DNA of 32,000 nt, taken from assembly GCA_965250005.1 (NCBI GenBank), contig OZ252279.1:1710001-1742000 (forward strand), in the 5' to 3' direction. Source of the DNA: Demequinaceae bacterium (GTDB lineage Bacteria; Actinomycetota; Actinomycetes; Actinomycetales; Demequinaceae). This document shows positions 4,509 through 27,640 of this stretch, piece after piece. The position numbers and the translations under genes were made by a program. Position 1 is the stretch's first letter; every line of letters starts with the position of its first letter. Under the pieces are notes generated by a model. The model did not search any database and had not been told where the DNA came from. It saw only the letters and a program-made list of their open reading frames with translations.

Positions 4509-4820
4509 ATGGCTCAGAAGGTTCAGGTCATTCTCATCGACGATGTCGATGGTGGCGCAGCAGACGAGACCCTGGGCTTCGCCCTCGAGGGCGTGACGTA
4601 CGAGATCGACCTCGCCAGCCACCGTGCTGATCAGCTCCGCGCGGCGCTCGAACCCTGGATCAAAGCGGGCCGGCGCGTGAGCACCCGCCGCTCCAGCAGC
4701 CCCCGTGGCTACAGCGACGCCGCCAAAATCCGCGCGTGGGCCGTGGAGAACGGCCACAGCGTCCCCACCCGCGGCCGCATCCCCGGTCCCGTCCGGGAAG
4801 CGTACGAAGCCGCCAACTAA
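4509..4820 (+). CDS. lsr2: Lsr2-family nucleoid-associated protein (H-NS-like xenogeneic silencer)
   Basis: 103 aa. The N-terminus MAQKVQVILIDDVDGG...ETLGFALEGVTYEIDL is the dimerisation domain. The C-terminus has IRAWAVENGHSVPTRGRIPGPVREAYEAAN with the RGR AT-hook-like motif. The lysS-lsr2 neighbourhood is conserved in Actinobacteria. Confidence 0.92.
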   Translation: MAQKVQVILIDDVDGGAADETLGFALEGVTYEIDLASHRADQLRAALEPWIKAGRRVSTRRSSSPRGYSDAAKIRAWAVENGHSVPTRGRIPGPVREAYEAAN

Positions 4821-5991: not shown

Positions 5992-6732
5992 ATGACTCAC
6001 ACACTGATCCTGCTCCGCCACGGCGAGAGCGAATGGAACGCCAAGAACCTGTTCACCGGCTGGGTGGATGTGCCGCTCAACGAGAAGGGCTGGCACGAGG
6101 CGATTCGCGGCGGCGAGCTCCTCAAGGACGCCGGCCTCCTGCCTGACGTGGTTCACACGTCGCTGCTGCGTCGCGCGATCATGACGTCGGCTCTCGCGCT
6201 GGATTCCGCCGACCGCCACTGGATCCCCGTGAAGCGCAACTGGCGCCTCAACGAGCGCCACTATGGCGACCTGCAGGGCAAGAATAAGGCGGAGGTGCGC
6301 GACGAGTTCGGCGAGGAACAGTTCATGACCTGGCGCCGTTCGTACGACGTGCCGCCGCCGGAGATCTCTGACGCCAACGAGTACTCCCAGGCAGGCGAGG
6401 TCCGCTATGCCGGCGAGCCCATTCCCAAGACGGAGTGCCTGAAGGACGTCCTCGACCGCGCCCTGCCGTACTGGGAGGGCGAGATCGTTCCAGACCTCGC
6501 CTCGGGAAAGACCGTCCTTGTCGCCGCGCACGGAAACTCGATTCGAGCCATCGTGAAGTACTTGGACGACGTCCCCGACGAGGACATCGTGGGAGTCAAC
6601 ATCCCCACGGGCATCCCGCTTCACTACGAGCTTGACGACGACTTCAAGCCCGTCGCCAAGGGTGGCACGTACCTTGACCCTGCCGCCGCGGCAGAGTCCA
6701 TCGCCGCCGTCGCGAACCAGGGGAAAAAATAG
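5992..6732 (+). CDS. gpmA: 2,3-bisphosphoglycerate-dependent phosphoglycerate mutase
   Basis: 246 aa. Contains [25 protein letters not shown] (catalytic RHGE), [14 protein letters not shown] and AAHGNSIRA. Confidence 0.95.
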
Positions 6733-8776: not shown

Positions 8777-9892
8777 ATGACCCCCGAGGCCTGGCTGGCG
8801 GCAGCTGGAGGCGCCGCGCTTGCCGCGCTCGTCACGTACGTCACGTTGCGCGCACGCCAGGGCCGCGAGGCCGTCGCGCGCAGCCTGGTGCCGCGCCGTA
8901 CCCGCCAGCTCATGGGAGCGCTGTCGTCCGGCGCGATTATCGTCCGCCGCGATCGGCGCGCGGCTTTCTCCAATGCGACCGCGTCCGCGCTGGGGCTCGC
9001 GCGGCCCGACGGCGCCCTCGACGAATCCGTCGCGGACCTGGCGGAACGGGCGTGGGAGCAAGGCGAGGCCGTCGAGGAGGAGATCAGCATTCGACGCGGC
9101 GTGCTCGGGGCCGTCGCCACCGTGCACGTGCGCGTCTCGCCGCTAGACGAGGATCTCGCGCTCGCCGTCGCGAACGACAGCACCGACCAGCGCGCCGCCG
9201 AGCTCACACGTCGCGAATTCGCCGTGAACGTGTCGCACGAACTCAAGACACCGGTGGGCGCGCTCGCGCTCTTGGCGGAAACCATTGACGCAGCAGCCGA
9301 TGAACCGGACACGGTGCGCGAGTTTGCCGCGAAAATCGGGAAGGAATCTCGGCGACTGTCCAAACTCATCCAGGAGATCATCGAGATCTCGCGACTCCAG
9401 GGCGGCGAAAGCGTCATGGACCACCAAGAGGTCAAGATCGGTGAGGTGATTGTCGAGGCGGTAGAAGCGGCGAAGCTCGCAGCCGAGGCTCGCAACATTG
9501 ACGTCACTGTTACAGAGAAGGCCAAGGCGAGCGTCATGGGTGACCGGGATCTGCTGGTCATGGCACTGCGCAACCTCGTCGACAACGCGATCGCATACTC
9601 CGATGCCGGGGGCCGGGTGTCCATAGATACGGCCCTTGACGGCAGCATCGTCACCCTGTCGGTCATCGACCGGGGCATCGGGATTGCCGCAAGCGAGCAG
9701 GAGCGCATCTTCGAACGGTTCTTCCGCACCGACCCCGCGCGATCCCGCGACAGCGGAGGCACGGGCCTTGGGCTGAGCATCGTCAAGCACGTGGCGCTGC
9801 AGCACGCGGGCGACGTGTCCGTCTGGTCGAGGATCGGTATCGGCTCAACGTTCGCGTTGCGCCTGCCCGTACACAAGGTCAAATCGTCATGA
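8777..9892 (+). CDS. senX3: Phosphate-responsive sensor histidine kinase (SenX3/PhoR type)
   Basis: 371 aa. It has an N-terminal TM segment, a PAS-like region, HisKA (FAVNVSHELKTPVGAL) and a HATPase domain (NLVDNAIAYS, DRGIGI, GGTGLGLSIVKH). It overlaps the response regulator gene by ATGA. Confidence 0.85.
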   Translation: MTPEAWLAAAGGAALAALVTYVTLRARQGREAVARSLVPRRTRQLMGALSSGAIIVRRDRRAAFSNATASALGLARPDGALDESVADLAERAWEQGEAVEEEISIRRGVLGAVATVHVRVSPLDEDLALAVANDSTDQRAAELTRREFAVNVSHELKTPVGALALLAETIDAAADEPDTVREFAAKIGKESRRLSKLIQEIIEISRLQGGESVMDHQEVKIGEVIVEAVEAAKLAAEARNIDVTVTEKAKASVMGDRDLLVMALRNLVDNAIAYSDAGGRVSIDTALDGSIVTLSVIDRGIGIAASEQERIFERFFRTDPARSRDSGGTGLGLSIVKHVALQHAGDVSVWSRIGIGSTFALRLPVHKVKSS

Positions 9893-10599
9893 CCAATAAG
9901 AGCGGGCCGCGGGTGCTGGTGGTTGAGGATGAAGAGTCATACCGCGCCTCGCTCAAGTTTCTGCTGGAACGCGAGGGCTTCGATGTGGCGCTCGCGGCCA
10001 CCGGGCCCGACGGTGTCCGCGCGTTCGAGCGCGGCGGCGCCGACGTCGTGCTTCTAGACCTCATGCTGCCCGGGCTAAGCGGCACGGACGTGTTCAAGGC
10101 GATCCGCGCGGACTCCGATGTGCCGATCATTATGGTGACGGCAAGGGACGACCAGGTGGACAAGGTTATTGGCCTTGAATTGGGCGCAGATGACTACGTA
10201 ACGAAGCCGTACTCGGGTCGCGAACTGGTCGCGCGCATACGCGCCGTGCTCCGGCGCGGGTCGCCCGCCCCACGCGATGACTTGGCGGCTGCGGAAAAGC
10301 TCACCGTCGCGGGACTCACGCTCGACCCCGAGCGACTCACGCTCGAGGGCATCGGAGAGAAGCAGTCGCTGCCGCCCAAGGAGTTCGCGCTACTGCACCT
10401 GCTCGTCACGAACGCGGGCCGCGTGTTGCCGCGTCAGACGATCATCGACCGGGTGTGGGGTCACGACTACTACGGGGACACCAAGACGCTCGACGTGCAC
10501 GTCAAGCGCGTGCGCGATCGCATCGAGCACGACGCGTCGCGGCCCGAGCTCGTCAAGACTATTCGTGGTGTCGGATACACGTTTGAGGCGCCCAAATAG
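9889..10599 (+). CDS. regX3: OmpR-family response regulator RegX3/PhoP
   Basis: 236 aa. Strongly resembles mycobacterial RegX3 as I recall it (VLVVEDEES, VLLDLMLPGLSGTDV, PIIMVTARDDQVDKVIGLELGADDYVTKPYSGRELVARIRAVLRR, DTKTLDVHVKRVRDRIE). Confidence 0.9.
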   Translation: MTNKSGPRVLVVEDEESYRASLKFLLEREGFDVALAATGPDGVRAFERGGADVVLLDLMLPGLSGTDVFKAIRADSDVPIIMVTARDDQVDKVIGLELGADDYVTKPYSGRELVARIRAVLRRGSPAPRDDLAAAEKLTVAGLTLDPERLTLEGIGEKQSLPPKEFALLHLLVTNAGRVLPRQTIIDRVWGHDYYGDTKTLDVHVKRVRDRIEHDASRPELVKTIRGVGYTFEAPK

Positions 10600-10647
10600 C
10601 GGCCGCCACCTGCGCGGCTTCGCGCCAGCAGAATGCCCGATTTGCGC

Positions 10648-10680
10648 GTTCACCGTTTGTTCATCCAACGTTCACGCCTG
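10648..10680 (+). promoter_or_regulatory. PHO box: three 11-nt direct repeat units GTTCACcgttt GTTCATccaac GTTCACgcctg upstream of pstS
   Basis: The hexamers start at 10648, 10659 and 10670, an exact 11-bp phasing, 86-118 bp upstream of the pstS GTG. They match the GTTCAC-core 11-nt direct-repeat architecture described for actinobacterial PhoP PHO boxes. Confidence 0.6.
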
Positions 10681-10765
10681 AGGCCTAGGCACCGTTACCT
10701 GGCGTGCGTAGCGTCGTAGTCAGCTGGCAAGGGTCGGCACTCATCACCGCCAAGAGGATGACTTC

Positions 10766-11851
10766 GTGACAATAGCAACGCGTACCGGCGTGGTGGCCGT
10801 CGCTGCGCTGTCGCTGGTGCTCGCGGCGTGTACGCCCACTAATGAGCGCGAAGACTGGGTTGGCGGGTCTGACTTGACCGGCGAGCTCAACGGGGCCGGT
10901 GCGTCGTCGCAGGAATCGGCGATGGAGGCGTGGCGCGCCGCGTTCCAGACAGACAACCGGGCGACCACGGTGAATTACGACGCGGTCGGCTCGGGAGGCG
11001 GACGCACCCAGTTTCTCGACGGTGCCACGAGCTTCGCCGGGTCTGATTCGCTCATGAACGCTGGCGAGTACGCGCTTGCCGTCGAGCGTTGCGACGGCAC
11101 TGCGGGTGCGATTCACTTCCCCACCTATGTCTCTCCCATCGCGGTGATCTTCAACCTCGACGGTGTCGCGAGCCTAAACATGACGTCGGACGTCATCGCG
11201 CAGATATTCGATGGCAAAATCGCGAACTGGTCTGACGCCGCGATCGCGGACATCAACCCTGGCGTCTCGCTGCCTGACCTGGTGATCACCTCGGTGCACC
11301 GCTCGGACGAGTCGGGCACGTCGAAGAACTTCACCGACTATCTCGCCAAGGCCTCCGAATCCTGGCCGTACGAGCCGTCCGGCGAGTGGCCAAACAACAT
11401 CGGCGAGGGCGGCCCGGGAACCTCCGCGGTTGTTTCGCTCGTCCGGGACACCAACGGCACGATCGCCTACGCGGATGCCTCCCGAGTCGGCACACTCGGC
11501 ACCGTGGCCCTTGGCGTTGGCGACAGTTTTGTCGAGTTCTCGCCCGCGGGAGCCGCAATCGCGGTGGCGGCGTCGCCGCTCGCCGAAGGCGCGAACGGCG
11601 CGAACGACCTCGCGTACGAACTCGACCGCAACACCACGGCGGAGGGCGCGTACCCGCTTGTGCTCGTCTCGTATCACGTCGCGTGCCAACAGTACGACGA
11701 CGTGGACGAGCGCGCGCTGGTCACCGCATTCCTCAGGTTCGTAGCGTCAGAAGACGGTCAGGACGTTTCCGCACGCGCCGCTGGGTCCTCTCCGATTGGC
11801 AGCCTCGGTGACGACGTCGTCGCGATTCTCGACGAGATCGCGGTGGGATAG
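10766..11851 (+). CDS. pstS: Phosphate ABC transporter substrate-binding lipoprotein
   Basis: 361 aa, GTG start with an AAGAGGA RBS and lipobox LVLAAC. Contains GAGASSQESAMEAW, YDAVGSGGGRTQF and the SDESGTS phosphate-binding motif. Confidence 0.9.
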   Translation: MTIATRTGVVAVAALSLVLAACTPTNEREDWVGGSDLTGELNGAGASSQESAMEAWRAAFQTDNRATTVNYDAVGSGGGRTQFLDGATSFAGSDSLMNAGEYALAVERCDGTAGAIHFPTYVSPIAVIFNLDGVASLNMTSDVIAQIFDGKIANWSDAAIADINPGVSLPDLVITSVHRSDESGTSKNFTDYLAKASESWPYEPSGEWPNNIGEGGPGTSAVVSLVRDTNGTIAYADASRVGTLGTVALGVGDSFVEFSPAGAAIAVAASPLAEGANGANDLAYELDRNTTAEGAYPLVLVSYHVACQQYDDVDERALVTAFLRFVASEDGQDVSARAAGSSPIGSLGDDVVAILDEIAVG

Positions 11852-11947
11852 AAAGATGCGAAAAGACCGGTCGTGCGCTCGTCCGCAGGGACGGGTCCAC
11901 GGCCGCGCGATTCTCTCTGCGGCAAGGACGTTCAACGGAGGCAGTAG

Positions 11948-12964
11948 GTGACGCAGACAAATCGGGTGGCCATCGAAGCCGATTCCGTGCCTCTCACGGT
12001 ACAGAACCGCAATGTCGCCAACTCCATTTTCACCGGGCTCTCCGTCGGTGCCGCGGGCCTCATCCTGGTCACACTCGCCGCCGTCGCAAGTTTCCTCCTG
12101 CTCGAGGCGATGCCGGCACTCACGTCGTCGGCCGAGGACCTTGCTGACTACGTCGACTGGCTCGGCACCGAGTCTAACGAGACGCTCATGGCCAATATCG
12201 GCTTCCTTGTGTATGGAACACTGATCATTTCGACCATCGCCATCCTGCTCGCCGCCCCCGTCTCGTACGGCATCGCTCTGTTCATCTCACATTACGCGCC
12301 GCGCCGTCTCGCCTCCAGCCTTGGGTACGCCGTTGACCTGCTCGCCGCCATTCCGTCCGTGGTCTACGGGCTCTGGGGATTCATCGTGCTGGTCCCCGCG
12401 CTGCTACCCACGTTCGAGTGGCTCGAAACCAACGTCGGGTGGATTCCCATTTTTGCCGGCCGCGAGCTCGCCGACGGAACCACCTCGGTGGGAACCGGCC
12501 GGGTCGCCCTGGCCGCAAGCGTGGTCCTTGCCATTATGATCTTGCCCATCATCACAGCGGTGACCCGTGAGGTCTTCCTTCAGACACCCAAACTGCACGA
12601 GGAGGCCGCTCTCGCGATGGGCGCCACCAAGTGGGAAATGATCCGTATGGCCGTGTTCCCGTACGGACGCTCCGGGATGATCGGCGCAACAATGCTGGGC
12701 CTGGGTCGCGCGCTCGGCGAGACGATGGCCGTCTACATGATCCTGACACCCGCAGCGGTGGTCGTGTACTCCGCGAGCGTGCTCGAACCTGCGGCACACA
12801 ACACCATCGCCGCCAATATCGCCCTCAAGTTCCCGGAGGCCAACTCGCAGGGCGTCTCGGCGCTCATCGCCATGGGTCTCGCATTATTCGTCATCACGCT
12901 CCTGGTCAACATGGTGGCTCGCTGGGTTGTCGCGCGCCGCGCAGAGTTCTCGGGAGCCAACTAA
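11948..12964 (+). CDS. pstC: Phosphate ABC transporter permease PstC
   Basis: 338 aa, GGAGG RBS, polytopic. EAALAMGATKWEMI is the EAA loop. Confidence 0.9.
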   Translation: MTQTNRVAIEADSVPLTVQNRNVANSIFTGLSVGAAGLILVTLAAVASFLLLEAMPALTSSAEDLADYVDWLGTESNETLMANIGFLVYGTLIISTIAILLAAPVSYGIALFISHYAPRRLASSLGYAVDLLAAIPSVVYGLWGFIVLVPALLPTFEWLETNVGWIPIFAGRELADGTTSVGTGRVALAASVVLAIMILPIITAVTREVFLQTPKLHEEAALAMGATKWEMIRMAVFPYGRSGMIGATMLGLGRALGETMAVYMILTPAAVVVYSASVLEPAAHNTIAANIALKFPEANSQGVSALIAMGLALFVITLLVNMVARWVVARRAEFSGAN

Positions 12965-13959
12965 TGGCAGCGAAGAAGCAATTGGGTGTGAACAAGACGA
13001 CGACGGCGACGGCGTTGGCGCTTGGGACGGTCTCGGCGCGGCGTCGGTGGACCGACCGTGGCATGCGCGCCGTTGTCTATGCGGCGTTCGCTGCGGCCAT
13101 GATCCCGCTGGTGTGGCTGACAGTGACCGTTGTCGATCGAGGCATGGACCGCTTCTTCCTCGACTCGAAGGGTGAACGAAACTTCAACCTTGACTTCTTC
13201 AACCAGTCGATGCGCGGCATCTTTGGTGGAATGCCGGAGGGCGGCATCGCTCACGCGATGACCGGAACGCTGCTCATTACGGTGGCGGCCGCAGTCATCT
13301 CGATCCCGATCGGTCTGCTCACCGCTATCTACCTCGTGGAGTACGGCGAGGGCTGGCTCAAGCGAGCGGTCACCTTCTTCGTTGACGTCATGACCGGAAT
13401 CCCGTCCATCGTTGCTGGGCTCTTCGCCTACGCACTGTTCTCGGTGATCTTCGGTGGGCCAACCAAGACGGGGTTCGTTGGCGCCGCAGCGTTGTCCGTG
13501 CTCATGATTCCGGTCGTTGTCCGCACCAGCGAGGAAATGCTCCGCCTGGTTCCGAACGAACTGCGCGAAGCGTCGTACGCGCTCGGCGTGCCCAAGTGGC
13601 TCACCATCCTCAAAGTTGTGATGCGGACGGCGTTCGCTGGCATCTCGACTGGAGTCATGCTCTCTGTCGCGCGGGTAATCGGCGAGACGGCTCCGCTGCT
13701 CATCGCCGTTGGGTTTGCGGACTCGCAGAATGTCAACCTCTTTGACGGCAAGATGATGTCCCTCCCGGTGTACATCGTGGAGCAGTGGCGCAAAGGCGAC
13801 GCGACGTGCAACGAGGGTTCCGCCATCATCGGATGCACGCCAGAAATCACGGAGTATCGCGCTTGGGCCGCCGCCCTGGTCCTCATCGCGATCGTCATGC
13901 TGCTTAACCTCGTCGCGCGGATAATCGCGCGCTACCTGTCCCCCAAGACCAGCCGCTAG
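12964..13959 (+). CDS. pstA: Phosphate ABC transporter permease PstA
   Basis: ORF 12631..13959 is trimmed to the ATG at 12964, which overlaps the pstC stop (TAATG). The product starts MAAKKQLGVNK..., is polytopic and carries the EAA loop REASYALGVPKWLTI. Confidence 0.9.
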   Translation: MAAKKQLGVNKTTTATALALGTVSARRRWTDRGMRAVVYAAFAAAMIPLVWLTVTVVDRGMDRFFLDSKGERNFNLDFFNQSMRGIFGGMPEGGIAHAMTGTLLITVAAAVISIPIGLLTAIYLVEYGEGWLKRAVTFFVDVMTGIPSIVAGLFAYALFSVIFGGPTKTGFVGAAALSVLMIPVVVRTSEEMLRLVPNELREASYALGVPKWLTILKVVMRTAFAGISTGVMLSVARVIGETAPLLIAVGFADSQNVNLFDGKMMSLPVYIVEQWRKGDATCNEGSAIIGCTPEITEYRAWAAALVLIAIVMLLNLVARIIARYLSPKTSR

Positions 13960-13974
13960 AAGACGGAGAATCAC

Positions 13975-14754
13975 GTGGCGAAGCGAATTGACGTCAACAA
14001 CCTGGATGTCTTCTACAGCAAGTTCCTTGCCGTAGAAGATGTGTCGCTCGCGATCGAGCCCAACTCAGTCACGGCCATCATTGGCCCCTCGGGATGCGGA
14101 AAATCCACCTTTCTGCGAACCATAAACCGCATGCACGAGGTCATCCCCGGCGCGCGCGTCGATGGCGAGGTGCTGATGGATGGCGTGGACCTCTACGGCG
14201 ACGGCGTTGACCCTGTCGCAGTGCGACGTCACGTGGGCATGGTGTTCCAGCGGCCCAATCCATTCCCGACCATGTCAATCTCTGGGAATGTGCTCGCCGG
14301 CGTGAAACTCAACAACGGACGCATGTCCAAGCCCGACGCGGCCGACCTTGTCGAAAAGTCGCTTAAGGATGCCAACCTCTGGAAAGAGGTCAAAGACCGC
14401 CTAGACAAGCCGGGCTCAGCGCTTTCCGGAGGGCAGCAGCAGCGACTCTGCATCGCCCGTGCGATCGCGATTAAGCCGGACGTGCTGCTGATGGATGAGC
14501 CATGTTCGGCCCTCGACCCCATCTCGACTCTCGCGATCGAGGACCTCATCGCGGAACTGAAGGATTCGTACACAATTGTCATCGTCACGCACAACATGCA
14601 GCAGGCAGCCCGCGTGAGCGATCGGACGGCGTTCTTCAATATCAGCGGCAGCGGAGAGCCAGGCAAACTCATTGAAATGAACGACACGGCGACCATCTTC
14701 TCGGCCCCCGAGGTCAGGGCGACCGAGGATTACATCTCCGGTCGGTTCGGCTAG
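13975..14754 (+). CDS. pstB: Phosphate ABC transporter ATP-binding protein
   Basis: 259 aa. Walker [10 protein letters not shown], signature [14 protein letters not shown], Walker [12 protein letters not shown], and the PstB-typical C-terminus [10 protein letters not shown]. Confidence 0.95.
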
Positions 14755-23456: not shown

Positions 23457-23939
23457 TTGTTCACCAAAGACCGGTTCGAGGCGGCGCAGCCGTGGCTCTC
23501 CCTTGTTGTGCGGCTCGCAGCCGCTGTCATCATGATTTGGGCCGGGTTCGCCAAACTCCAGGACCTGCCCGCAAGCGTTCGCGCTGTGCGGGCGTACGAA
23601 CTCGTTCCAGAGACGTTTGTTCCGCTCATAGGCAATTCGCTTCCATTCGTAGAGATTCTTGTGGGCTTCTTCCTGCTCTTTGGACTGCTGACGCGGGCGA
23701 CGGCGATCGCGTACATGGCGATGCTAGTCGGCTTCCTGATCGGGCTGGTATGGGCTTGGTCGCACGGACTCAACATTGACTGCGGCTGCTTTGGCGGGGG
23801 CGGAGAACTGGCCGAAGGCGAGGCCGACTATGCGGGCCACCTGATCGAGAGGCTCGGCTTCATGGCACTCGGCACCTGGCTCATCATTTGGCCCCGCAGC
23901 AAGTTCTCAGCGGACGGATGGCTCCGGCCAGCAAGCTAG
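23457..23939 (+). CDS. MauE/DoxX-family redox-associated membrane protein
   Basis: 160 aa, TTG start 8 nt after GGAGG. It has four hydrophobic segments and the DCGCFGGGG motif characteristic of MauE-type proteins. Confidence 0.7.
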   Translation: MFTKDRFEAAQPWLSLVVRLAAAVIMIWAGFAKLQDLPASVRAVRAYELVPETFVPLIGNSLPFVEILVGFFLLFGLLTRATAIAYMAMLVGFLIGLVWAWSHGLNIDCGCFGGGGELAEGEADYAGHLIERLGFMALGTWLIIWPRSKFSADGWLRPAS

Positions 23940-23987
23940 CGGACCGCAGATAAGATGGCACCAGCAAATCCAGACTGGACGGGGTAG

Positions 23988-24845
23988 ATGACGATGGCGA
24001 ACAAGGCGAAGAACAAGGCCGCATCAGCAGCGGCGCGGCAGCGAGCCGCAGAACTGGCAGCGAGCGAGAAGCGCAAGAGTGCGCTCGTCGTCACCTTCAC
24101 GGTTGTAGGCGCGCTGTTGGCAGTGGCGCTGATCGTGTGGGCCGTCATGTTCATCATGGGCAGCAAGCCCGGTCAGGTCGCGGGGCTAGACGTCGAACTC
24201 TACGATTCAGGCGTGGTGACCGTGCCTTCTTCGGCAGACGAGACGGGAGGCTTCGTTGTGGGGATGACGGGCATTGTTGGGCAGGATCTCCCGGCCGAAG
24301 GCACGGTCCGCGTCGACATCTACGAAGACTTCATGTGCCCCAATTGCGCCACCCTGGAACGAGTGACGCACTTTGACATTGAAGAGCTCCGTGAGCAGGG
24401 ACTCATCACAGTCGCGTACCACCCGATCTCGATCCTCAACCGCTTCTCTGAGGGAACCGCATATCCGACGCGCGCCGCACAGGCGTTGGCAACAGTCGCG
24501 GAATATGACCCCGAGCACTTTGACGAGTTCTCACTTCAACTATTCGGGAACCAGCCCGCAGAGAACACCATTGGCTTGACCAACACAGAGATCGACAATT
24601 TTGCTCGTGCCGCTGGCGTGAGCGAGGAAGCGATTCTGAAAATTCGTGATGGCGAGTTCACTCGATGGGTGGCGCAGGCGACGGAGGCGTCCTCGATCGC
24701 GGGAGTCCGCGGGACCCCGACGATCTTGTTCGACGGCGCTCCAGTTTCGCCGGAGTGGTGGGTAGAAGGCCAACTTCGCGCGGCCATTGAGGACTTCATT
24801 GACTTCAAGGCGCTCGATGACGCGTTGGAGGAAGACGCCGCCTAG
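23988..24845 (+). CDS. Membrane-anchored DsbA-family thiol:disulfide oxidoreductase
   Basis: 285 aa. A basic N-terminus and one TM helix are followed by a thioredoxin-fold domain with the CPNC active site (IYEDFMCPNCATLE) and a C-terminal GVRGTPT cis-Pro loop. Confidence 0.8.
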   Translation: MTMANKAKNKAASAAARQRAAELAASEKRKSALVVTFTVVGALLAVALIVWAVMFIMGSKPGQVAGLDVELYDSGVVTVPSSADETGGFVVGMTGIVGQDLPAEGTVRVDIYEDFMCPNCATLERVTHFDIEELREQGLITVAYHPISILNRFSEGTAYPTRAAQALATVAEYDPEHFDEFSLQLFGNQPAENTIGLTNTEIDNFARAAGVSEEAILKIRDGEFTRWVAQATEASSIAGVRGTPTILFDGAPVSPEWWVEGQLRAAIEDFIDFKALDDALEEDAA

Positions 24846-24917: not shown

Positions 24918-24990
24918 GCTGGCATGGCGCAATTGGTAGCGCACCCGTCTTGTAAACGGGAGGTTGCGGGTTCAAGTCCCGCTGCCAGCT
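24918..24990 (+). tRNA. tRNA-Thr (anticodon UGU)
   Basis: Hand-folded cloverleaf. Acceptor GCTGGCA/TGCCAGC, D stem GCGC/GCGC, anticodon stem CCCGT/ACGGG with loop CTTGTAA, variable loop AGGTT, T stem GCGGG/CCCGC with loop TTCAAGT, discriminator T. 73 nt, with no encoded CCA. Confidence 0.9.
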
Positions 24991-25215
24991 CAAGTGCGAT
25001 AGGGGCTTTTACCAGGCCGAATGTCTCTGACGTACCCCATTAAATGGGGGCGATCGTGTCGTCCCCCGCACTTATGGGGCAGAAACCGCGTCATAATTGG
25101 CTACCACCCCTCTCTCATGTAGTAACGGCAAACAGCCGATAGTACAATCCAAAGGCGGATGCGAGAGTCACTCGCTCCCGCAACGCTCCAAGCAAGTCTC
25201 GAAAGGAACATCATT

Positions 25216-25614
25216 ATGACCACGCGAAAGAAGAAGAATTCGCGCAAGTCCCTGGCCATCGCACTCGGCATCGTCGGCGTCGCAGGCCTGAGCATGGCAT
25301 CTGCCGCTCAGCTCTCTGTAACGTCCAATGACGTCTCAGCAGGAACGGCGGATGTCGTTTCGTGTGACACCGACGGCGTCACCGTCTCGTACACCACCGC
25401 GTTTGCGGCAACCCAGTACGAGGTTTCGGACATTGATGTTACCGGCGTGGCCGCGGCTTGTGTAGGCGACACGATTTCCATCACCGTTCGCAACAGTGGC
25501 GGCACGACAATCTTCACCGGCTCGCAGGTCGTTTCGGGCACGACAGAGTCGTTTGGCAGCGTTGATGTAGCTGCTGAAGATGTCGAGGATGTGGATGTAG
25601 CAATCTTCCAGTAG
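25216..25614 (+). CDS. Small exported protein with a SipW-dependent (TasA/camelysin-like) signal peptide
   Basis: 132 aa from the ATG at 25216 (GAAAGGA RBS 9 nt upstream; the longer ORF from 25159 lacks a usable RBS). It has a K-rich n-region (MTTRKKKNSRK), an h-region and ASA, then AQLSVTSNDVSAGTADV. That layout echoes the TasA mature N-terminus (...ATFASGTLDL). Confidence 0.7.
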   Translation: MTTRKKKNSRKSLAIALGIVGVAGLSMASAAQLSVTSNDVSAGTADVVSCDTDGVTVSYTTAFAATQYEVSDIDVTGVAAACVGDTISITVRNSGGTTIFTGSQVVSGTTESFGSVDVAAEDVEDVDVAIFQ

Positions 25615-25635
25615 GCAATTGCGAGTGGAACACTC

Positions 25636-26205
25636 ATGATTCGGCATGCGACGAGTACCGGTGTGAAGAACTCACGCCGGTATTTGTCGTTGCTGGGCAA
25701 CTTGTTGCTTTGGGCCGTGATCCTGGTTGATGCGTGGTTCTTGTGGCCCACCGCTCTCGGCGGCGCCACGTCGCTGGTGATTGTCTCGGGAAATTCGATG
25801 TTCCCGACGTATGAGGACGGCGACCTGGTGGTCGCGAGGGTGGGCGAACCCTCAGTAGGAGATGTCGTTGTGTACTCCCCCGAAATGCTGGGAGGAGCGC
25901 GCGTGGTCCACCGCATCGTCGGTGGCAACGCAGACGACGGGTGGGAGATCCAAGGCGACGCCAATTCGTATGCGGACCAGTGGCGTCCAGGAAACGACGA
26001 AATTGTTGGCGTGGTCGAGCTTCACTACGCACGCGTAGGGCTGTTCGCGACACTCCTGATGACCCCGTGGACCTGGGGATTTGTGTTGCTCGCAGCCGTG
26101 GGGTTGATCTTGTGGCCCGATGATCACGACGACGAAGATGGGGCCGCGCCGGTCGCTGCGCGACAAGAAGGGGCACCACTTGCGTCGGTGAGCCCGCGCA
26201 CATGA
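25636..26205 (+). CDS. Signal peptidase I, ER/archaeal (SipW) type
   Basis: 189 aa. An N-terminal TM segment is followed by SGNSMFPTYEDGDLV (catalytic Ser), VVHRIVGG (His where bacterial P-type enzymes have Lys) and QGDANSYAD (GDNN-like box). There is a C-terminal TM segment and an acidic tail. Confidence 0.85.
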   Translation: MIRHATSTGVKNSRRYLSLLGNLLLWAVILVDAWFLWPTALGGATSLVIVSGNSMFPTYEDGDLVVARVGEPSVGDVVVYSPEMLGGARVVHRIVGGNADDGWEIQGDANSYADQWRPGNDEIVGVVELHYARVGLFATLLMTPWTWGFVLLAAVGLILWPDDHDDEDGAAPVAARQEGAPLASVSPRT

Positions 26206-26972
26206 AGCGCCGGAAAGTGGTGGGGTTACTCGCGCTTGCGGGAATCGCGCTCGTTGCCGTGGGATCGGCCAGGGCGGTGCAGCTCTCGGTTGCTTCATCG
26301 AACTTGCAATCGATTTCCGAATCCAGGTGCGATGATGCGACTCTCGCCGCGCGGAACATCACCCTCAATACAGGTTCGTCTTTCGATGGCGTGCGGATCG
26401 ATCCGATCGACGTAGCGTGTGACGCGCTCGGGATCACCGTCATCGGGTTCCAATCGGACGGAACGCAGGTGTTTTCGGTAAGTGGCACTGCCTCGACGGG
26501 CCAGAATGACATTGCGGTCACTACGTATGATGCAACCCTCGTAGCTGTCGTTGCCGTGCTTGTGGATGGTTACGGGATTCCCAACACGTGGACGTACGTA
26601 CCACAGGCGATTACGTGCGCTCCGTACAAGAAGAACGGCCAGCCGCACCCCGCCAAGCAGTGCACAGTGATAGCGGAGACGTACTCATCCGTCTCGGGAA
26701 CGACCCCCAATCAGAACCAACAGGTGGGCTTCGCCGTCAACTCGACTGCACAGTCGTGGCGAACGTCGGTGGATTTCACGAACGCCAACTTTGAGTTCCC
26801 CGTCTTTTGGGTGGGCCAAATCGGCGGCACTGTTCAACTCGCGCCCGGATACACGTGCCCCGGCGGCGCGATCTCGAGCATCACACTGGCTCCCGTTGGG
26901 GGCAGTTCCGCAGGAACAATCGTGGTCAGCGAGTCCGGTACGGTCGCAGGAGCAACGGAGCTCTGCCCCTAG
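26202..26972 (+). CDS. Exported six-cysteine protein; its N-terminal domain is paralogous to the 25216..25614 product
   Basis: 256 aa. The ATG overlaps the peptidase stop (ATGA). The signal peptide is [25 protein letters not shown], followed by VQLSVASS. There is no LPXTG motif and no lipobox. Confidence 0.65.
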
Positions 26973-27640
26973 GTCGGGGAGCCCCACTCAATAGGGCTTG
27001 CGCCCTGATCGGCGAGCAGGGCATTGGTGCGTGAGAACGGACGCGAGCCAAAGAACCCTCGCGAGGCGCTCAGCGGGCTCGGGTGGGCGCTCTCGATGTG
27101 CGCAGTCTTTGCAAGCGCGGGTGCGAGCGCCCGCGCGTCCCGCCCCCACAGAATCGCGACCACGGGACCTCCACGCTGCACGAGGGCGCTGATCGCGAGG
27201 GCGGTGACTTCTTCCCATCCGCGCCGCTGATGCGACCTGGGCTTGCCGGGCTCCACCGTGAGCACCCGATTGAGGAGCATGACGCCCTGAGCCGCCCAGT
27301 GGGAGAGGTCGCCGTCGTTGAGCACCTCGCCGGTGTCTTCGCGAAGTTCGCGGGCAATGTTGCGCAGCGAGCGCGGAAGGGGACGTCCGGCCGCTACCGA
27401 GAAACTCAGGCCAACCGGGTCCCCAGGCGTCGGGTAGGGGTCCTGTCCGAGCAGCAGCACGCGCACGTTGGCCATTGGGGTTTCAAAGGCCCGCAGAACG
27501 GCCGCGGGCGCTGGCAGGTACGGCCGACCCGCAGTCACCTCGCCGTCAAGGAACTCTGCCACCTCGGCGAAGCGACCCGCAGCCGGTTGAAGCGCTTCGA
27601 TCCAGTCGGGAGCCACCTGGTCGCGCCAACTGTTTGACAT
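26969..27640 (-). CDS. ung: Uracil-DNA glycosylase (family 1)
   Basis: 223 aa. Contains [13 protein letters not shown] (the water-activating GQDPY loop), [11 protein letters not shown] and HPSPLSA. Confidence 0.93.

What the first reader, a model, noticed from the sequence alone, without database searches (positions are those of the whole stretch)
24918..26972. Lower-GC islet next to tRNA-Thr encoding a tapA-sipW-tasA-like secretion/fibre cassette
Directly 3' of tRNA-Thr(UGU) the composition drops. My hand counts of single 60-nt lines give about 48-62% GC inside 25200-26760, versus about 67-72% in the flanks at 24001 and 27061. The segment holds three co-oriented, tightly packed genes: a 132-aa exported protein, an ER/archaeal-type (SipW-like) signal peptidase, and a 256-aa exported protein. 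The first gap is 21 nt and the second junction is an ATGA overlap. A dedicated SipW-type peptidase sandwiched between its likely substrates is the layout of the Bacillus tapA-sipW-tasA biofilm-fibre operon. The first protein even shows the TasA-like K-rich signal peptide followed by SAGTADV (cf. ASGTLDL). Such actinobacterial cassettes are, to my knowledge, functionally uncharacterised. Neither substrate has a sortase motif or a lipobox. I found no integrase, no transposase and no repeat of the tRNA 3' end, so this is an old or non-canonical acquisition. The Lsr2 encoded in this window is a plausible silencer of it, but that is speculation.
Basis: partly seen in the sequence, partly recalled or inferred. 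Interest (0 to 1): 0.75.

Follow-up and report, generated by a model that had tools for sequence, protein, structure and literature searches.

The report
Signal-peptidase cassette with two exported paralogs
A small actinobacterial genome carries a conserved three-gene set: a Sec11/SipW-type signal peptidase flanked by two related, uncharacterised exported proteins. It is laid out like the Bacillus biofilm-fibre operon, but it is not a foreign island and its proteins show no relation to TasA.

Summary
The genes are as described: tRNA-Thr(UGU), then a 132-aa exported protein (P1), an ER/archaeal-type signal peptidase and a 256-aa exported protein (P3), with a 21-nt gap and an ATGA overlap.

The "acquired islet" reading fails.
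- The GC trough is shallow (0.594 against 0.644) and begins about 1.2 kb left of the tRNA.
- Codon usage is ordinary for genes of this length.
- The cassette sits at the same DsbA–ung locus in five related genomes (GroEL 88–93% identical) and in most long metagenomic loci.

The operon analogy holds and is now quantified.
- 58 of 60 loci with a P1 gene also carry the peptidase, and 38 of 40 carry a P3-type gene.
- Natural peptidase::P3 fusions exist.
- P1 is homologous to the N-domain of P3 (hhalign 98.8%).
- Both share an A-x-A-[AS]-x-L-x-[VIL] junction, a fixed 18–21-residue N-terminal segment and strict Cys counts.

No sequence, profile or fold test links either protein to TasA, TapA or camelysin.

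Best reading: a surface fibre or adhesin module matured by a dedicated peptidase. Donor-strand assembly is inferred, not shown. I rate it a new variant of a known kind.

The parts
23457..23939 (+). MauE/DoxX-family membrane protein. It is a context gene and a possible redox partner of the DsbA-like protein.
   Evidence: Pfam MauE 7e-26. It lies upstream of the cassette in L001, L006, L007, L014 and in most long metagenomic loci.
23988..24845 (+). Membrane-anchored DsbA-like thiol-disulfide oxidoreductase with a CPNC motif. It is a context gene. A role in oxidising the Cys pairs of P1 and P3 is inferred, not shown.
   Evidence: Pfam Thioredoxin_4 / DSBA. It is conserved directly upstream of the cassette.
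24918..24991 (+). tRNA-Thr(UGU). It is a landmark only, not an island boundary.
   Evidence: ARAGORN. The same tRNA is present in L001, L006 and L007. L075 has a cassette on both sides of it.
24992..25215 (+). 224-bp spacer upstream of P1 (GC 0.54). It presumably holds the promoter. An AAGGA ribosome-binding site lies 8 nt before the ATG.
   Evidence: Sequence and GC. The sigma-70 consensus scan found no site.
25216..25614 (+). P1, a 132-aa exported protein. Residues 1-29 are a Sec-type signal peptide ending in ASA. Residues 30-50 are a conserved N-terminal segment (AQLSVTS...C50). Residues 51-132 are a six-stranded beta-sandwich core with a C50-C82 pair. It is the proposed major subunit.
   Evidence: Family alignment A1, 36 sequences with no Pfam or NCBIfam match. 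AF2 model: core pLDDT above 88, residues 23-39 below 50. All 86 P1-type proteins have exactly 2 Cys.
25636..26205 (+). ER/archaeal-type (Sec11/SipW-like) signal peptidase I, 189 aa. Transmembrane segments lie at 16-42 and 137-159 with the catalytic domain between them. The proposed catalytic residues are Ser54, His92 and Asp108/Asp114. The C-terminal tail is acidic and predicted cytoplasmic.
   Evidence: Pfam S24 27.2 bits (above cutoff); TIGR02228 45.4 bits (cutoff 51.85). The closest solved sequences are human SEC11C and SEC11A, with the SM, HR and GD(N/A)N motifs aligned. Invariant S54, H92, R93, D108 and D114 in 23 homologs. Hydropathy.
26202..26972 (+). P3, a 256-aa exported protein. Residues 1-25 are a signal peptide ending in ARA. 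Residues 26-42 are an N-terminal segment (VQLSVASS...). Residues 43-135 form an N-domain homologous to P1. Residues 136-256 form a second beta-sandwich domain. Six Cys are invariant. It is the proposed minor subunit (tip, anchor or nucleator).
   Evidence: Exhaustive HMMER search found 42 relatives among 1.84 billion representatives. Alignment A2. hhalign A1 against A2: 98.8%, E = 8e-17. AF2 pLDDT 85.5. The stop codon overlaps the convergent ung stop.

Best explanation
This is a vertically inherited three-gene module of a clade of mostly uncultured Micrococcales-like Actinomycetota (the closest named relative is a Demequinaceae MAG).

Proposed mechanism:
1. P1 and P3 are exported by Sec.
2. 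The membrane-embedded Sec11/SipW-type peptidase encoded between them cleaves both at a shared A-x-A | [AS]-x-L-x-[VIL] junction.
3. Cleavage frees a conserved N-terminal segment of fixed length (18-21 residues up to the first Cys).
4. This segment sits ahead of a small disulfide-bonded Ig-like beta-sandwich.
5. I propose that the freed segment acts as a donor strand that inserts into the sandwich of the next subunit. P1 would then polymerise into a sortase-independent surface fibre.
6. P3 carries the same N-terminal segment and a P1-like domain plus an extra C-terminal domain. It would be built in as a minor subunit (tip adhesin, nucleator or wall anchor), as TapA is for TasA.
7. The DsbA-like and MauE pair directly upstream may form the disulfides.

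Status of each step:
- Shown: gene content, peptidase type, paralogy of P1 and P3, the shared junction motif, the Cys pattern, obligatory co-occurrence, natural fusions and conserved synteny.
- Inferred: cleavage by this particular peptidase, polymerisation by strand donation, the roles of P1 and P3, and the involvement of DsbA.

The confidence of 0.5 is for the whole statement. The enzyme-substrate module alone is about 0.85, and polymerisation by strand donation about 0.4-0.5.
For: Linkage:
- 58/60 metagenomic loci with at least 700 nt downstream of P1 carry the peptidase.
- 38/40 loci with at least 2200 nt downstream carry a P3-type gene.
- All 253 cassette features are co-oriented.
- 17 of those 40 loci have 2-4 P1 paralogs. 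L006 and L025 have duplicated P1-peptidase pairs.

Fusions:
- P0064, P0076 and the L009/L010 ORF fuse the peptidase to P3 through an acidic linker.
- The fusions keep a hydrophobic segment and the ASA|[SA][QK]L junction.
- The predicted topology places that junction outside the membrane, next to the catalytic domain.

Peptidase type:
- Ser54, His92 and Asp108 are invariant.
- The best matches among solved structures are SEC11C and SEC11A.
- TIGR02228 scores above TIGR02227.

Substrates:
- hhalign of the P1 family against the P3 family gives 98.8%, E = 8e-17.
- The junction motif is present in 43/52 P3-type proteins and in 10/14 P1 paralogs that were not selected by the search pattern.
- The first Cys lies 18-21 residues after the A-x-A.
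- P1-type proteins have 2 Cys in 86/86 cases. P3-type proteins have 6 Cys in 35/42.
- In P1, positions L33, V35 and S37 are conserved while the positions between them vary.
- This N-terminal segment is more conserved than the core (0.51 against 0.35).
- AF2 gives it pLDDT below 50-60 in both monomer models, whereas the cores exceed 88.

Precedent:
- TasA and TapA share an N-terminal donor motif and are processed by SipW (PMC9674648).
- TasA-superfamily loci combine a TIGR02228-type SPase I with minor and tip subunits (preprint 10.64898/2026.01.04.697558).
Against: - The substrates show no sequence or fold relation to any known fibre subunit.
- A 6-stranded core of about 80 residues is smaller than the known TasA-superfamily subunits I could compare it with (own knowledge for their sizes).
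- The conserved N-terminal segment could serve only as a recognition element for the peptidase.
- It could also be an A-strand that packs in cis and that AF2 failed to place.
- No anchoring device is evident: there is no LPXTG motif, no C-terminal transmembrane segment and no SLH domain.
- The peptidase scores below the TIGR02228 cutoff.
- The rest of the genome was not available, so I could not check for a separate housekeeping LepB.
- The strong conservation of the P1 signal peptide (0.77) is partly an ascertainment artefact, because both P1 searches used shared words or a signal-peptide pattern.
Confidence: 0.5

Rival explanations
1. A dedicated-peptidase secretion cassette for non-polymerising proteins. 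P1 and P3 would be monomeric secreted or envelope-associated Ig-like proteins, such as adhesins, binding proteins or envelope components. The conserved junction and N-terminal segment would then be only the recognition or positioning element for the private peptidase.
For: - Everything that ties the three genes together fits this reading equally well.
- No fold or sequence match to any fibre subunit was found.
- No anchor or assembly factor is present in the window.
Against: - Conservation extends to +14 (G43 is invariant) with alternating constrained positions. As far as I know (own knowledge), signal-peptidase specificity does not usually reach that far.
- The segment length is fixed up to the first Cys.
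- Arrays of 2-4 P1 paralogs together with one larger paralog carrying an extra domain resemble loci with a major subunit, minor subunits and a tip subunit.
- The conserved segment has low pLDDT next to a confident core.
Confidence: 0.3
2. The substrates are true but extremely diverged members of the TasA/camelysin superfamily, so the locus is a genuine ortholog-level relative of tapA-sipW-tasA.
For: - The operon layout and peptidase type match.
- A 2026 preprint places TasA homologs in Actinomycetota and shows many diverged subfamilies that only profile or structure methods detect.
- One weak hit to the TapA model TIGR04087 (E = 0.02).
Against: - The TapA hit occurs in 1 of 36 family members.
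- No member of either family hits TIGR04088, TIGR04089 or any TasA/camelysin model in Pfam or NCBIfam.
- Family HMMs find no PDB chain at E <= 10.
- The top 50 Foldseek PDB matches contain no TasA, AbpA, thread or cannula chains.
- The P1 core is an approximately 80-residue six-stranded sandwich, not a jelly-roll of about 200 residues.
Confidence: 0.1
3. A horizontally acquired genomic islet inserted at tRNA-Thr, possibly silenced by Lsr2.
For: - The cassette is adjacent to a tRNA gene.
- The segment is in the lowest 2.3% of same-size windows for GC.
- The cassette proteins diverge fast: P3 is 26-30% identical between relatives, against 88-93% for GroEL.
Against: - The order Pkinase-MauE-DsbA-tRNA-P1-SPase-P3-ung-DUF3263-LytR_C-GroEL is the same in L001, L006, L007, L014 and L015. 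L015 lacks a called MauE gene.
- 17/22 metagenomic loci with enough downstream sequence have ung.
- The GC trough starts left of the tRNA, and GC3 and codon distance are within the range of the neighbours.
- There is no integrase and no att-like repeat.
- L075 has cassettes on both sides of the tRNA.
- P3 and ung overlap at their stop codons.
Confidence: 0.03
4. The peptidase is the cell's general signal peptidase and its neighbours are incidental secreted proteins.
For: The window contains no other signal peptidase, and the rest of the genome was not available.
Against: - Near-obligatory co-occurrence, duplicated P1-peptidase pairs and fusions to P3.
- The same trio occurs in unrelated neighbourhoods (L011, L012, L030, L053, L095).
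- Actinobacteria normally use a P-type (Ser-Lys) LepB as the housekeeping enzyme (own knowledge).
Confidence: 0.05

Closest known systems
Bacillus subtilis tapA-sipW-tasA biofilm-fibre operon (and C. perfringens sipW-bsaA-bsaB-bsaC)
   Same: - A dedicated ER/archaeal-type signal peptidase I is encoded in one operon with the exported proteins it is thought to process.
- The two substrates share an N-terminal motif.
- One substrate is small or major and the other is a larger accessory protein.
- No sortase is needed (PMC9674648, PMC9245690, PMC11580942).
   Different: - The substrates are unrelated by every test run here.
- They are much smaller: the mature P1 is about 103 aa with a six-stranded sandwich.
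- They are disulfide-bonded (2 and 6 invariant Cys).
- The accessory protein is a paralog of the small one.
- The gene order is small-peptidase-large.
- Peptidase::substrate fusions occur.
- The peptidase does not reach the SipW equivalog model (NF046067 gives no hit).
TasA-superfamily donor-strand filaments of archaea and bacteria (AbpA, AbpX, Tafi, 0406-thread, cannulae)
   Same: - Chaperone-free extracellular filaments built by N-terminal strand donation.
- Loci often hold a TIGR02228-type SPase I, minor subunits resembling the major one, and tip proteins with variable domains (preprint 10.64898/2026.01.04.697558).
   Different: - Membership is not supported by profile or Foldseek tests.
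- No calcium-site or isopeptide signature was looked for or seen.
- Filament formation here is only inferred.
Chaperone-usher pilins of Gram-negative bacteria (for example PsaA/MyfA, FimA)
   Same: - Small Ig-like subunits of about 100-150 aa with a conserved N-terminal extension that has alternating hydrophobic positions.
- Arrays of paralogous major and minor subunits plus a two-domain subunit.
- 11 of 36 P1 members give sub-threshold hits to the MyfA/PsaA model.
   Different: - Those hits lie mainly in the signal-peptide region and are far below cutoff.
- There is no chaperone, no usher and no outer membrane.
- The two-domain subunit carries its extra domain at the C-terminal end.
Eukaryotic Sec11 / archaeal signal peptidase I (MEROPS S26B)
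   Same: - The Ser-His(-Asp) active-site motifs SM, HR and GD(N/A)N.
- The best sequence matches among solved structures are SEC11C and SEC11A.
   Different: - It is a bacterial two-TM stand-alone enzyme with an acidic cytoplasmic tail.
- It is operon-linked to specific substrates.

Membership tests
ER/archaeal-type signal peptidase I (TIGR02228; S26B, SipW/Sec11-like) | Catalytic Ser in an SM motif, and His in place of the Lys of P-type enzymes (HR motif), plus the conserved GDN-box Asp | tested here: met
   S54, H92-R93, G107-D108 and D114 are invariant in 23 homologs. They align to the SEC11C and SEC11A motifs.
ER/archaeal-type signal peptidase I (TIGR02228; S26B, SipW/Sec11-like) | Score at or above the curated cutoff of the family model | tested here: not met
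   TIGR02228 scores 45.4 bits against a cutoff of 51.85. It is still the best model (bacterial TIGR02227 scores 29.5). Pfam Peptidase_S24 at 27.2 passes its cutoff of 23.3. Peptidase_S26 at 22.4 is just under 22.9.
ER/archaeal-type signal peptidase I (TIGR02228; S26B, SipW/Sec11-like) | Membrane topology with the catalytic domain outside, between an N-terminal and a C-terminal TM segment | tested here: met
   Hydropathy segments at 16-42 and 137-159. This rests on hydropathy alone; no dedicated topology predictor was run.
SipW proper (NF046067 equivalog) | Match to the Bacillus SipW equivalog model | tested here: not met
   The window peptidase gives no hit at E <= 1. A distant relative in L017 reaches only 39 bits against a cutoff of 190.
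tapA-sipW-tasA type fibre operon / TasA superfamily | A dedicated signal peptidase co-transcribed with its exported substrates | tested here: met
   21-nt gap and ATGA overlap. Co-occurrence in 58/60 and 38/40 loci. Natural fusions. Co-transcription itself was not measured.
tapA-sipW-tasA type fibre operon / TasA superfamily | Substrates homologous to TasA/camelysin, or carrying the SipW-cognate signal (TIGR04088/04089/04090) | tested here: not met
   No hit for the window proteins or for any of the 36 + 31 family members. Family HMMs against all PDB sequences find nothing relevant. hhalign against TasA gives 0.2-0.3%.
tapA-sipW-tasA type fibre operon / TasA superfamily | Jelly-roll subunit fold similar to TasA, AbpA or the thread subunit | tested here: not met
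tapA-sipW-tasA type fibre operon / TasA superfamily | An N-terminal donor strand that completes the neighbouring subunit | tested here: inconclusive
   The segment is conserved, of fixed length and has low pLDDT. That is compatible with strand donation, but no multimer prediction or experiment was possible.
tapA-sipW-tasA type fibre operon / TasA superfamily | An accessory protein that shares the N-terminal motif of the major subunit | tested here: met
   P1 and P3 share the A-x-A-[AS]-x-L-x-[VIL] junction and a homologous domain.
tRNA-linked genomic island | Integrase or recombinase, and a direct repeat of the tRNA 3' end | tested here: not met
tRNA-linked genomic island | Patchy presence among relatives | tested here: not met
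   The cassette is present at the same locus in L001, L006, L007, L014 and L015, and in most long metagenomic loci.
tRNA-linked genomic island | Atypical composition or codon usage bounded by the insertion site | tested here: not met
   The trough begins around 23.7 kb, left of the tRNA. GC3 is 0.68-0.72 against 0.64-0.77 for neighbours. Codon distances of 0.18-0.26 are comparable with other short genes.
Sortase-dependent Gram-positive pili | LPXTG sorting signal on the subunits and a sortase in the locus | tested here: not met
   Neither window protein has LPXTG. It occurs in 2/86 P1-type and 0/52 P3-type proteins. No sortase is present in the window.

The most novel reading that the evidence does not exclude
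P1 and P3 define a previously unrecognised class of actinobacterial surface filament. Disulfide-bonded Ig-like subunits of about 100 residues would polymerise without chaperone or sortase, by N-terminal strand donation, after cleavage by a private Sec11/SipW-type peptidase. In some lineages that peptidase is physically fused to the minor subunit. This would be an independent invention, or a very deep branch, of the TasA-type assembly principle on a different fold.
Probability: 0.35. Interest if true: 0.75.

Novelty: new variant of a known kind. Interest (0 to 1): 0.55.

Why it matters
Filaments built by strand donation after cleavage by a dedicated signal peptidase have recently emerged as a major way of building biofilm matrices in Bacillota and Archaea. 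Comparable machinery in Actinomycetota has not been characterised.

- This cassette gives two unnamed protein families with no Pfam or NCBIfam model. At least 111 loci in JGI metagenomes carry them.
- It also gives a clean, minimal three-gene system in a 2-Mb genome.
- The natural peptidase::substrate fusions make the enzyme-substrate pairing directly testable.
- If the fibre reading is right, the known assembly principle extends to a new, much smaller subunit fold and to a new phylum-level setting.
- If it is wrong, the cassette is still a clear case of a private signal peptidase with a defined recognition motif.

The analysis also removes a false lead. The locus is not a horizontally acquired island.

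Tried and rejected
- The word-indexed homolog search found only the query itself for P3. The exhaustive HMMER search was needed to find its family.
- Exact-sequence look-ups of the window's own P1 and P3 found no record. Cluster look-ups gave no names or accessions.
- The weak TapA hit (TIGR04087, E = 0.02) was checked across the family and occurs in 1 of 36 members, so I reject it as chance.
- The MyfA/PsaA hits occur in 11 of 36 members but lie mostly in the signal-peptide region, so I do not use them as evidence.
- By eye the P3 C-domain recalled a CBM2-like pattern. No member hits CBM_2 in Pfam, so this stays an untested recollection.
- I scanned substrates of a distant SipW-like cassette (L017) as a positive control for the TIGR04088-type models. 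They hit nothing either, so the control failed.
- The sigma-70 promoter scan found nothing, and the terminator-like hits lie inside coding sequence.
- Literature searches for actinobacterial SipW-type cassettes returned nothing specific.
- Both structure-prediction jobs went on monomers, so no multimer test of strand donation could be run.
Full report
**What is there**

ARAGORN finds one tRNA in the window, tRNA-Thr(UGU), at 24918-24991. Three co-oriented ORFs follow after a 224-bp spacer:
- P1, 25216-25614, 132 aa, with an AAGGA ribosome-binding site 8 nt upstream.
- A peptidase, 25636-26205, 189 aa, 21 nt after P1.
- P3, 26202-26972, 256 aa, joined to the peptidase by an ATGA overlap.

The P3 stop codon overlaps the stop of the convergent uracil-DNA glycosylase gene (ung, 26969-27640, minus strand).

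**Composition and the island idea**

The segment 24992-26972 has GC 0.594. Windows of the same size average 0.644 +/- 0.023, so the segment is in the lowest 2.3%.

All windows that low start between 23731 and 24991. The trough therefore already includes the MauE and DsbA genes to the left of the tRNA (GC 0.617 and 0.606). At 300-nt resolution the left flank is 0.58-0.63. Similar dips occur at 14-15 kb and 28-29 kb.

GC3 of the three genes is 0.68, 0.72 and 0.71. Their neighbours have DsbA 0.73, DUF3263 0.71 and LytR_C 0.64. The deficit is mainly at codon position 1 (0.56-0.57), which reflects a Thr/Ser/Val/Asn-rich composition. Synonymous-codon distances of 0.18-0.26 match those of other short genes, such as WXG100 at 0.27 and DUF3263 at 0.23.

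There is no integrase or transposase and no repeat of the tRNA 3' end. The surrounding window is core actinobacterial housekeeping: nadC, lysS, lsr2, a two-component system, pst, carD-ispD-ispF-cysS, groEL and a WXG100 gene.

**Synteny**

I used ung, P1 homologs and the peptidase as probes. The order Pkinase-MauE/DoxX-DsbA-tRNA-Thr-P1-peptidase-P3-ung-DUF3263-LytR_C-GroEL recurs in five genomes:
- L001, an Actinomycetota MAG.
- L006 and L007.
- L014.
- L015, a Demequinaceae MAG, GCA_016933155.1, where no MauE gene is called.

Identities to the window are GroEL 88-93%, ung 67-71%, peptidase 45-56%, P1 44-53% and P3 26-30%. The cassette is therefore ancestral to this clade and fast-evolving, as surface proteins tend to be.

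In 80 metagenomic loci, ung lies downstream in 17 of the 22 with enough sequence. One locus (L075) has a complete cassette on each side of the tRNA. The islet interpretation is rejected.

**The peptidase**

- Pfam gives Peptidase_S24 (27.2 bits, above cutoff) and S26 (22.4, just below cutoff).
- NCBIfam ranks the archaeal/ER model TIGR02228 first (45.4 bits, cutoff 51.85), ahead of the bacterial model (29.5).
- The closest solved sequences are human SEC11C and SEC11A. The motifs SGNSM, VHRIV and QGDAN align with their GSM, HR and GDNN motifs.
- Ser54, His92-Arg93, Gly107-Asp108 and Asp114 are invariant across 23 homologs.
- Hydropathy gives two membrane segments, 16-42 and 137-159, flanking the catalytic domain. 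A conserved acidic tail follows.

It is a Sec11/SipW-type Ser-His enzyme, although it is not a member of the SipW equivalog family.

**The substrates**

P1 has 36 relatives in the word-indexed search, all unnamed and without Pfam domains. P3 has 42 relatives among 1.84 billion cluster representatives in an exhaustive HMMER search.

A profile-profile comparison shows that P1 is homologous to the N-terminal half of P3 (98.8%, E = 8e-17).

AF2 predicts a confident six-stranded beta-sandwich for P1 residues 51-132. For P3 it predicts two beta-sandwich domains (pLDDT 85.5). In both models the stretch just after the signal peptide is low-confidence.

Both families share the junction A-x-A-[AS]-x-L-x-[VIL]. 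In the metagenomic loci it is present in 43 of 52 P3-type proteins and in 10 of 14 secondary P1 paralogs that were not selected by the search pattern.

The first Cys lies a fixed 18-21 residues after the A-x-A. All 86 P1-type proteins have exactly two Cys, and 35 of 42 full-length P3-type proteins have six.

In the P1 family the post-cleavage segment is more conserved than the core (0.51 against 0.35). Constrained positions alternate (L33, V35, S37), and G43 is invariant. The signal peptide is even more conserved (0.77), but that figure is inflated by how the homologs were found.

**Functional linkage**

- Among the 80 metagenomic loci, 58 of 60 with enough downstream sequence have the peptidase right after P1 (median gap about 40 nt).
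- 38 of 40 have a P3-type gene.
- All 253 cassette features are on one strand.
- 17 of those 40 loci carry 2-4 P1 paralogs.
- L006 and L025 have duplicated P1-peptidase pairs.
- The trio also occurs in unrelated neighbourhoods, including L011 and L012.

Three distinct sequences are natural peptidase::P3 fusions: P0064, P0076 and the L009/L010 ORF, which comes from two independent assemblies. Each has an acidic linker, a third hydrophobic segment and a retained ASA|[SA][QK]L junction. The predicted topology puts that junction outside the membrane, next to the active site. This is Rosetta-stone evidence that P3 is a substrate of this enzyme.

**Tests against TasA and relatives**

- Neither window protein, and none of the 36 + 31 family members, matches the TasA/camelysin models or the TIGR04088-04090 models.
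- The one TapA hit (E = 0.02) is confined to 1 of 36 members.
- Family HMMs find no relevant PDB chain at E <= 10.
- Foldseek against PDB returns only generic Ig-like matches. P3 matches Fab/scFv chains at TM 0.2, and P1 has nothing below E = 0.01.

**Mechanism**

The steps I propose are:
1. Sec exports P1 and P3.
2. The private peptidase cleaves both at the shared junction.
3. Disulfides form. The DsbA-like/MauE pair directly upstream is a candidate catalyst (inference).
4. The freed N-terminal segment acts as a donor strand that links P1 subunits into a fibre.
5. P3 contributes the same strand and a P1-like domain, plus an extra domain for adhesion, nucleation or anchoring.

This follows the precedent of TasA and TapA (PMC9674648), BsaA (PMC11580942) and the archaeal and bacterial TasA-superfamily loci. 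Those loci combine a TIGR02228-type peptidase with minor and tip subunits (preprint 10.64898/2026.01.04.697558).

The enzyme-substrate pairing is well supported; I put it at roughly 0.85. Polymerisation is inferred; I put it at roughly 0.4-0.5. The main rival is that P1 and P3 are non-polymerising secreted proteins and that the motif serves only for recognition.

**Novelty**

I found no paper on actinobacterial cassettes of this kind. The two substrate families have no model in Pfam or NCBIfam. The overall principle is known, so I rate this a new variant of a known kind. The source is an unnamed 2.0-Mb Actinomycetota genome. The closest named relative of its peptidase is a Demequinaceae (Micrococcales) MAG.

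Noticed in passing
P0064, P0076; L009 7446-8897; L010 3323-4774: Natural fusions of the SipW-like peptidase to a P3-type protein. They run TM-catalytic domain-TM, then an acidic linker, then a signal-peptide-like TM segment with the ASA|[SA][QK]L junction, then the P3 body. They are found in independent assemblies.
   Followed up: partly
L075 3992-8131: One complete P1-peptidase-P3 cassette lies on each side of tRNA-Thr (tRNA at 6021-6094). The tRNA is therefore not a boundary of the element.
   Followed up: partly
L006 6001-9200: The P1-peptidase pair is duplicated. The P3-type gene looks frameshifted, and its downstream frames give weak FRG1/beta-trefoil-like and DUF7910 hits (E = 0.016 and 1e-4, both below cutoff). 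This may be an alternative C-terminal binding domain.
   Followed up: partly
L020 7582-7965; L026 3236-3637; L050 3804-4205; L071 7274-7678: A third subclass of P1-type genes lies about 1.2 kb downstream of P3. It keeps the ASAA junction but lacks the Q-L-x-V motif (consensus RTASAAGxDF...LIGSSTAEQC). What lies in the intervening 1.2 kb was not examined.
   Followed up: no
window 23457-24845: A MauE/DoxX membrane protein (DCGCFGGGG motif) and a membrane-anchored DsbA-like protein (CPNC) sit directly upstream of the cassette in nearly all syntenic loci. They fit the strict 2-Cys and 6-Cys patterns of P1 and P3. Whether the link is functional or only syntenic is unknown.
   Followed up: partly
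window 25636-25700 and 26113-26202: The peptidase has a conserved cytoplasmic N-terminal motif (RH[SA]TG[TI]GA) and an acidic C-terminal tail, both conserved across homologs. No function is assigned to either.
   Followed up: no
window 26969-26972: P3 and the convergent ung gene overlap at their stop codons (CTAG). That leaves no room for a terminator between them.
   Followed up: no
L017 2716-6943: More distant SipW-like peptidases (two copies; one passes TIGR02228 at 63.8 bits) sit among four or more exported proteins of about 190-260 aa. These have G-T-Y-A-K-Y-T-T-type signal ends and also match no curated family. This is another uncharacterised cassette type.
   Followed up: partly
window 4509-4820: Lsr2 is confirmed (both Pfam domains). 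It lies in a conserved housekeeping block about 20 kb from the cassette, and nothing links the two.
   Followed up: partly
window 8777-14754: A histidine kinase/OmpR-type regulator pair is followed by genes matching a PstS-like phosphate-binding protein, an ABC permease and an ABC ATPase. The layout resembles senX3-regX3 next to pst.
   Followed up: no
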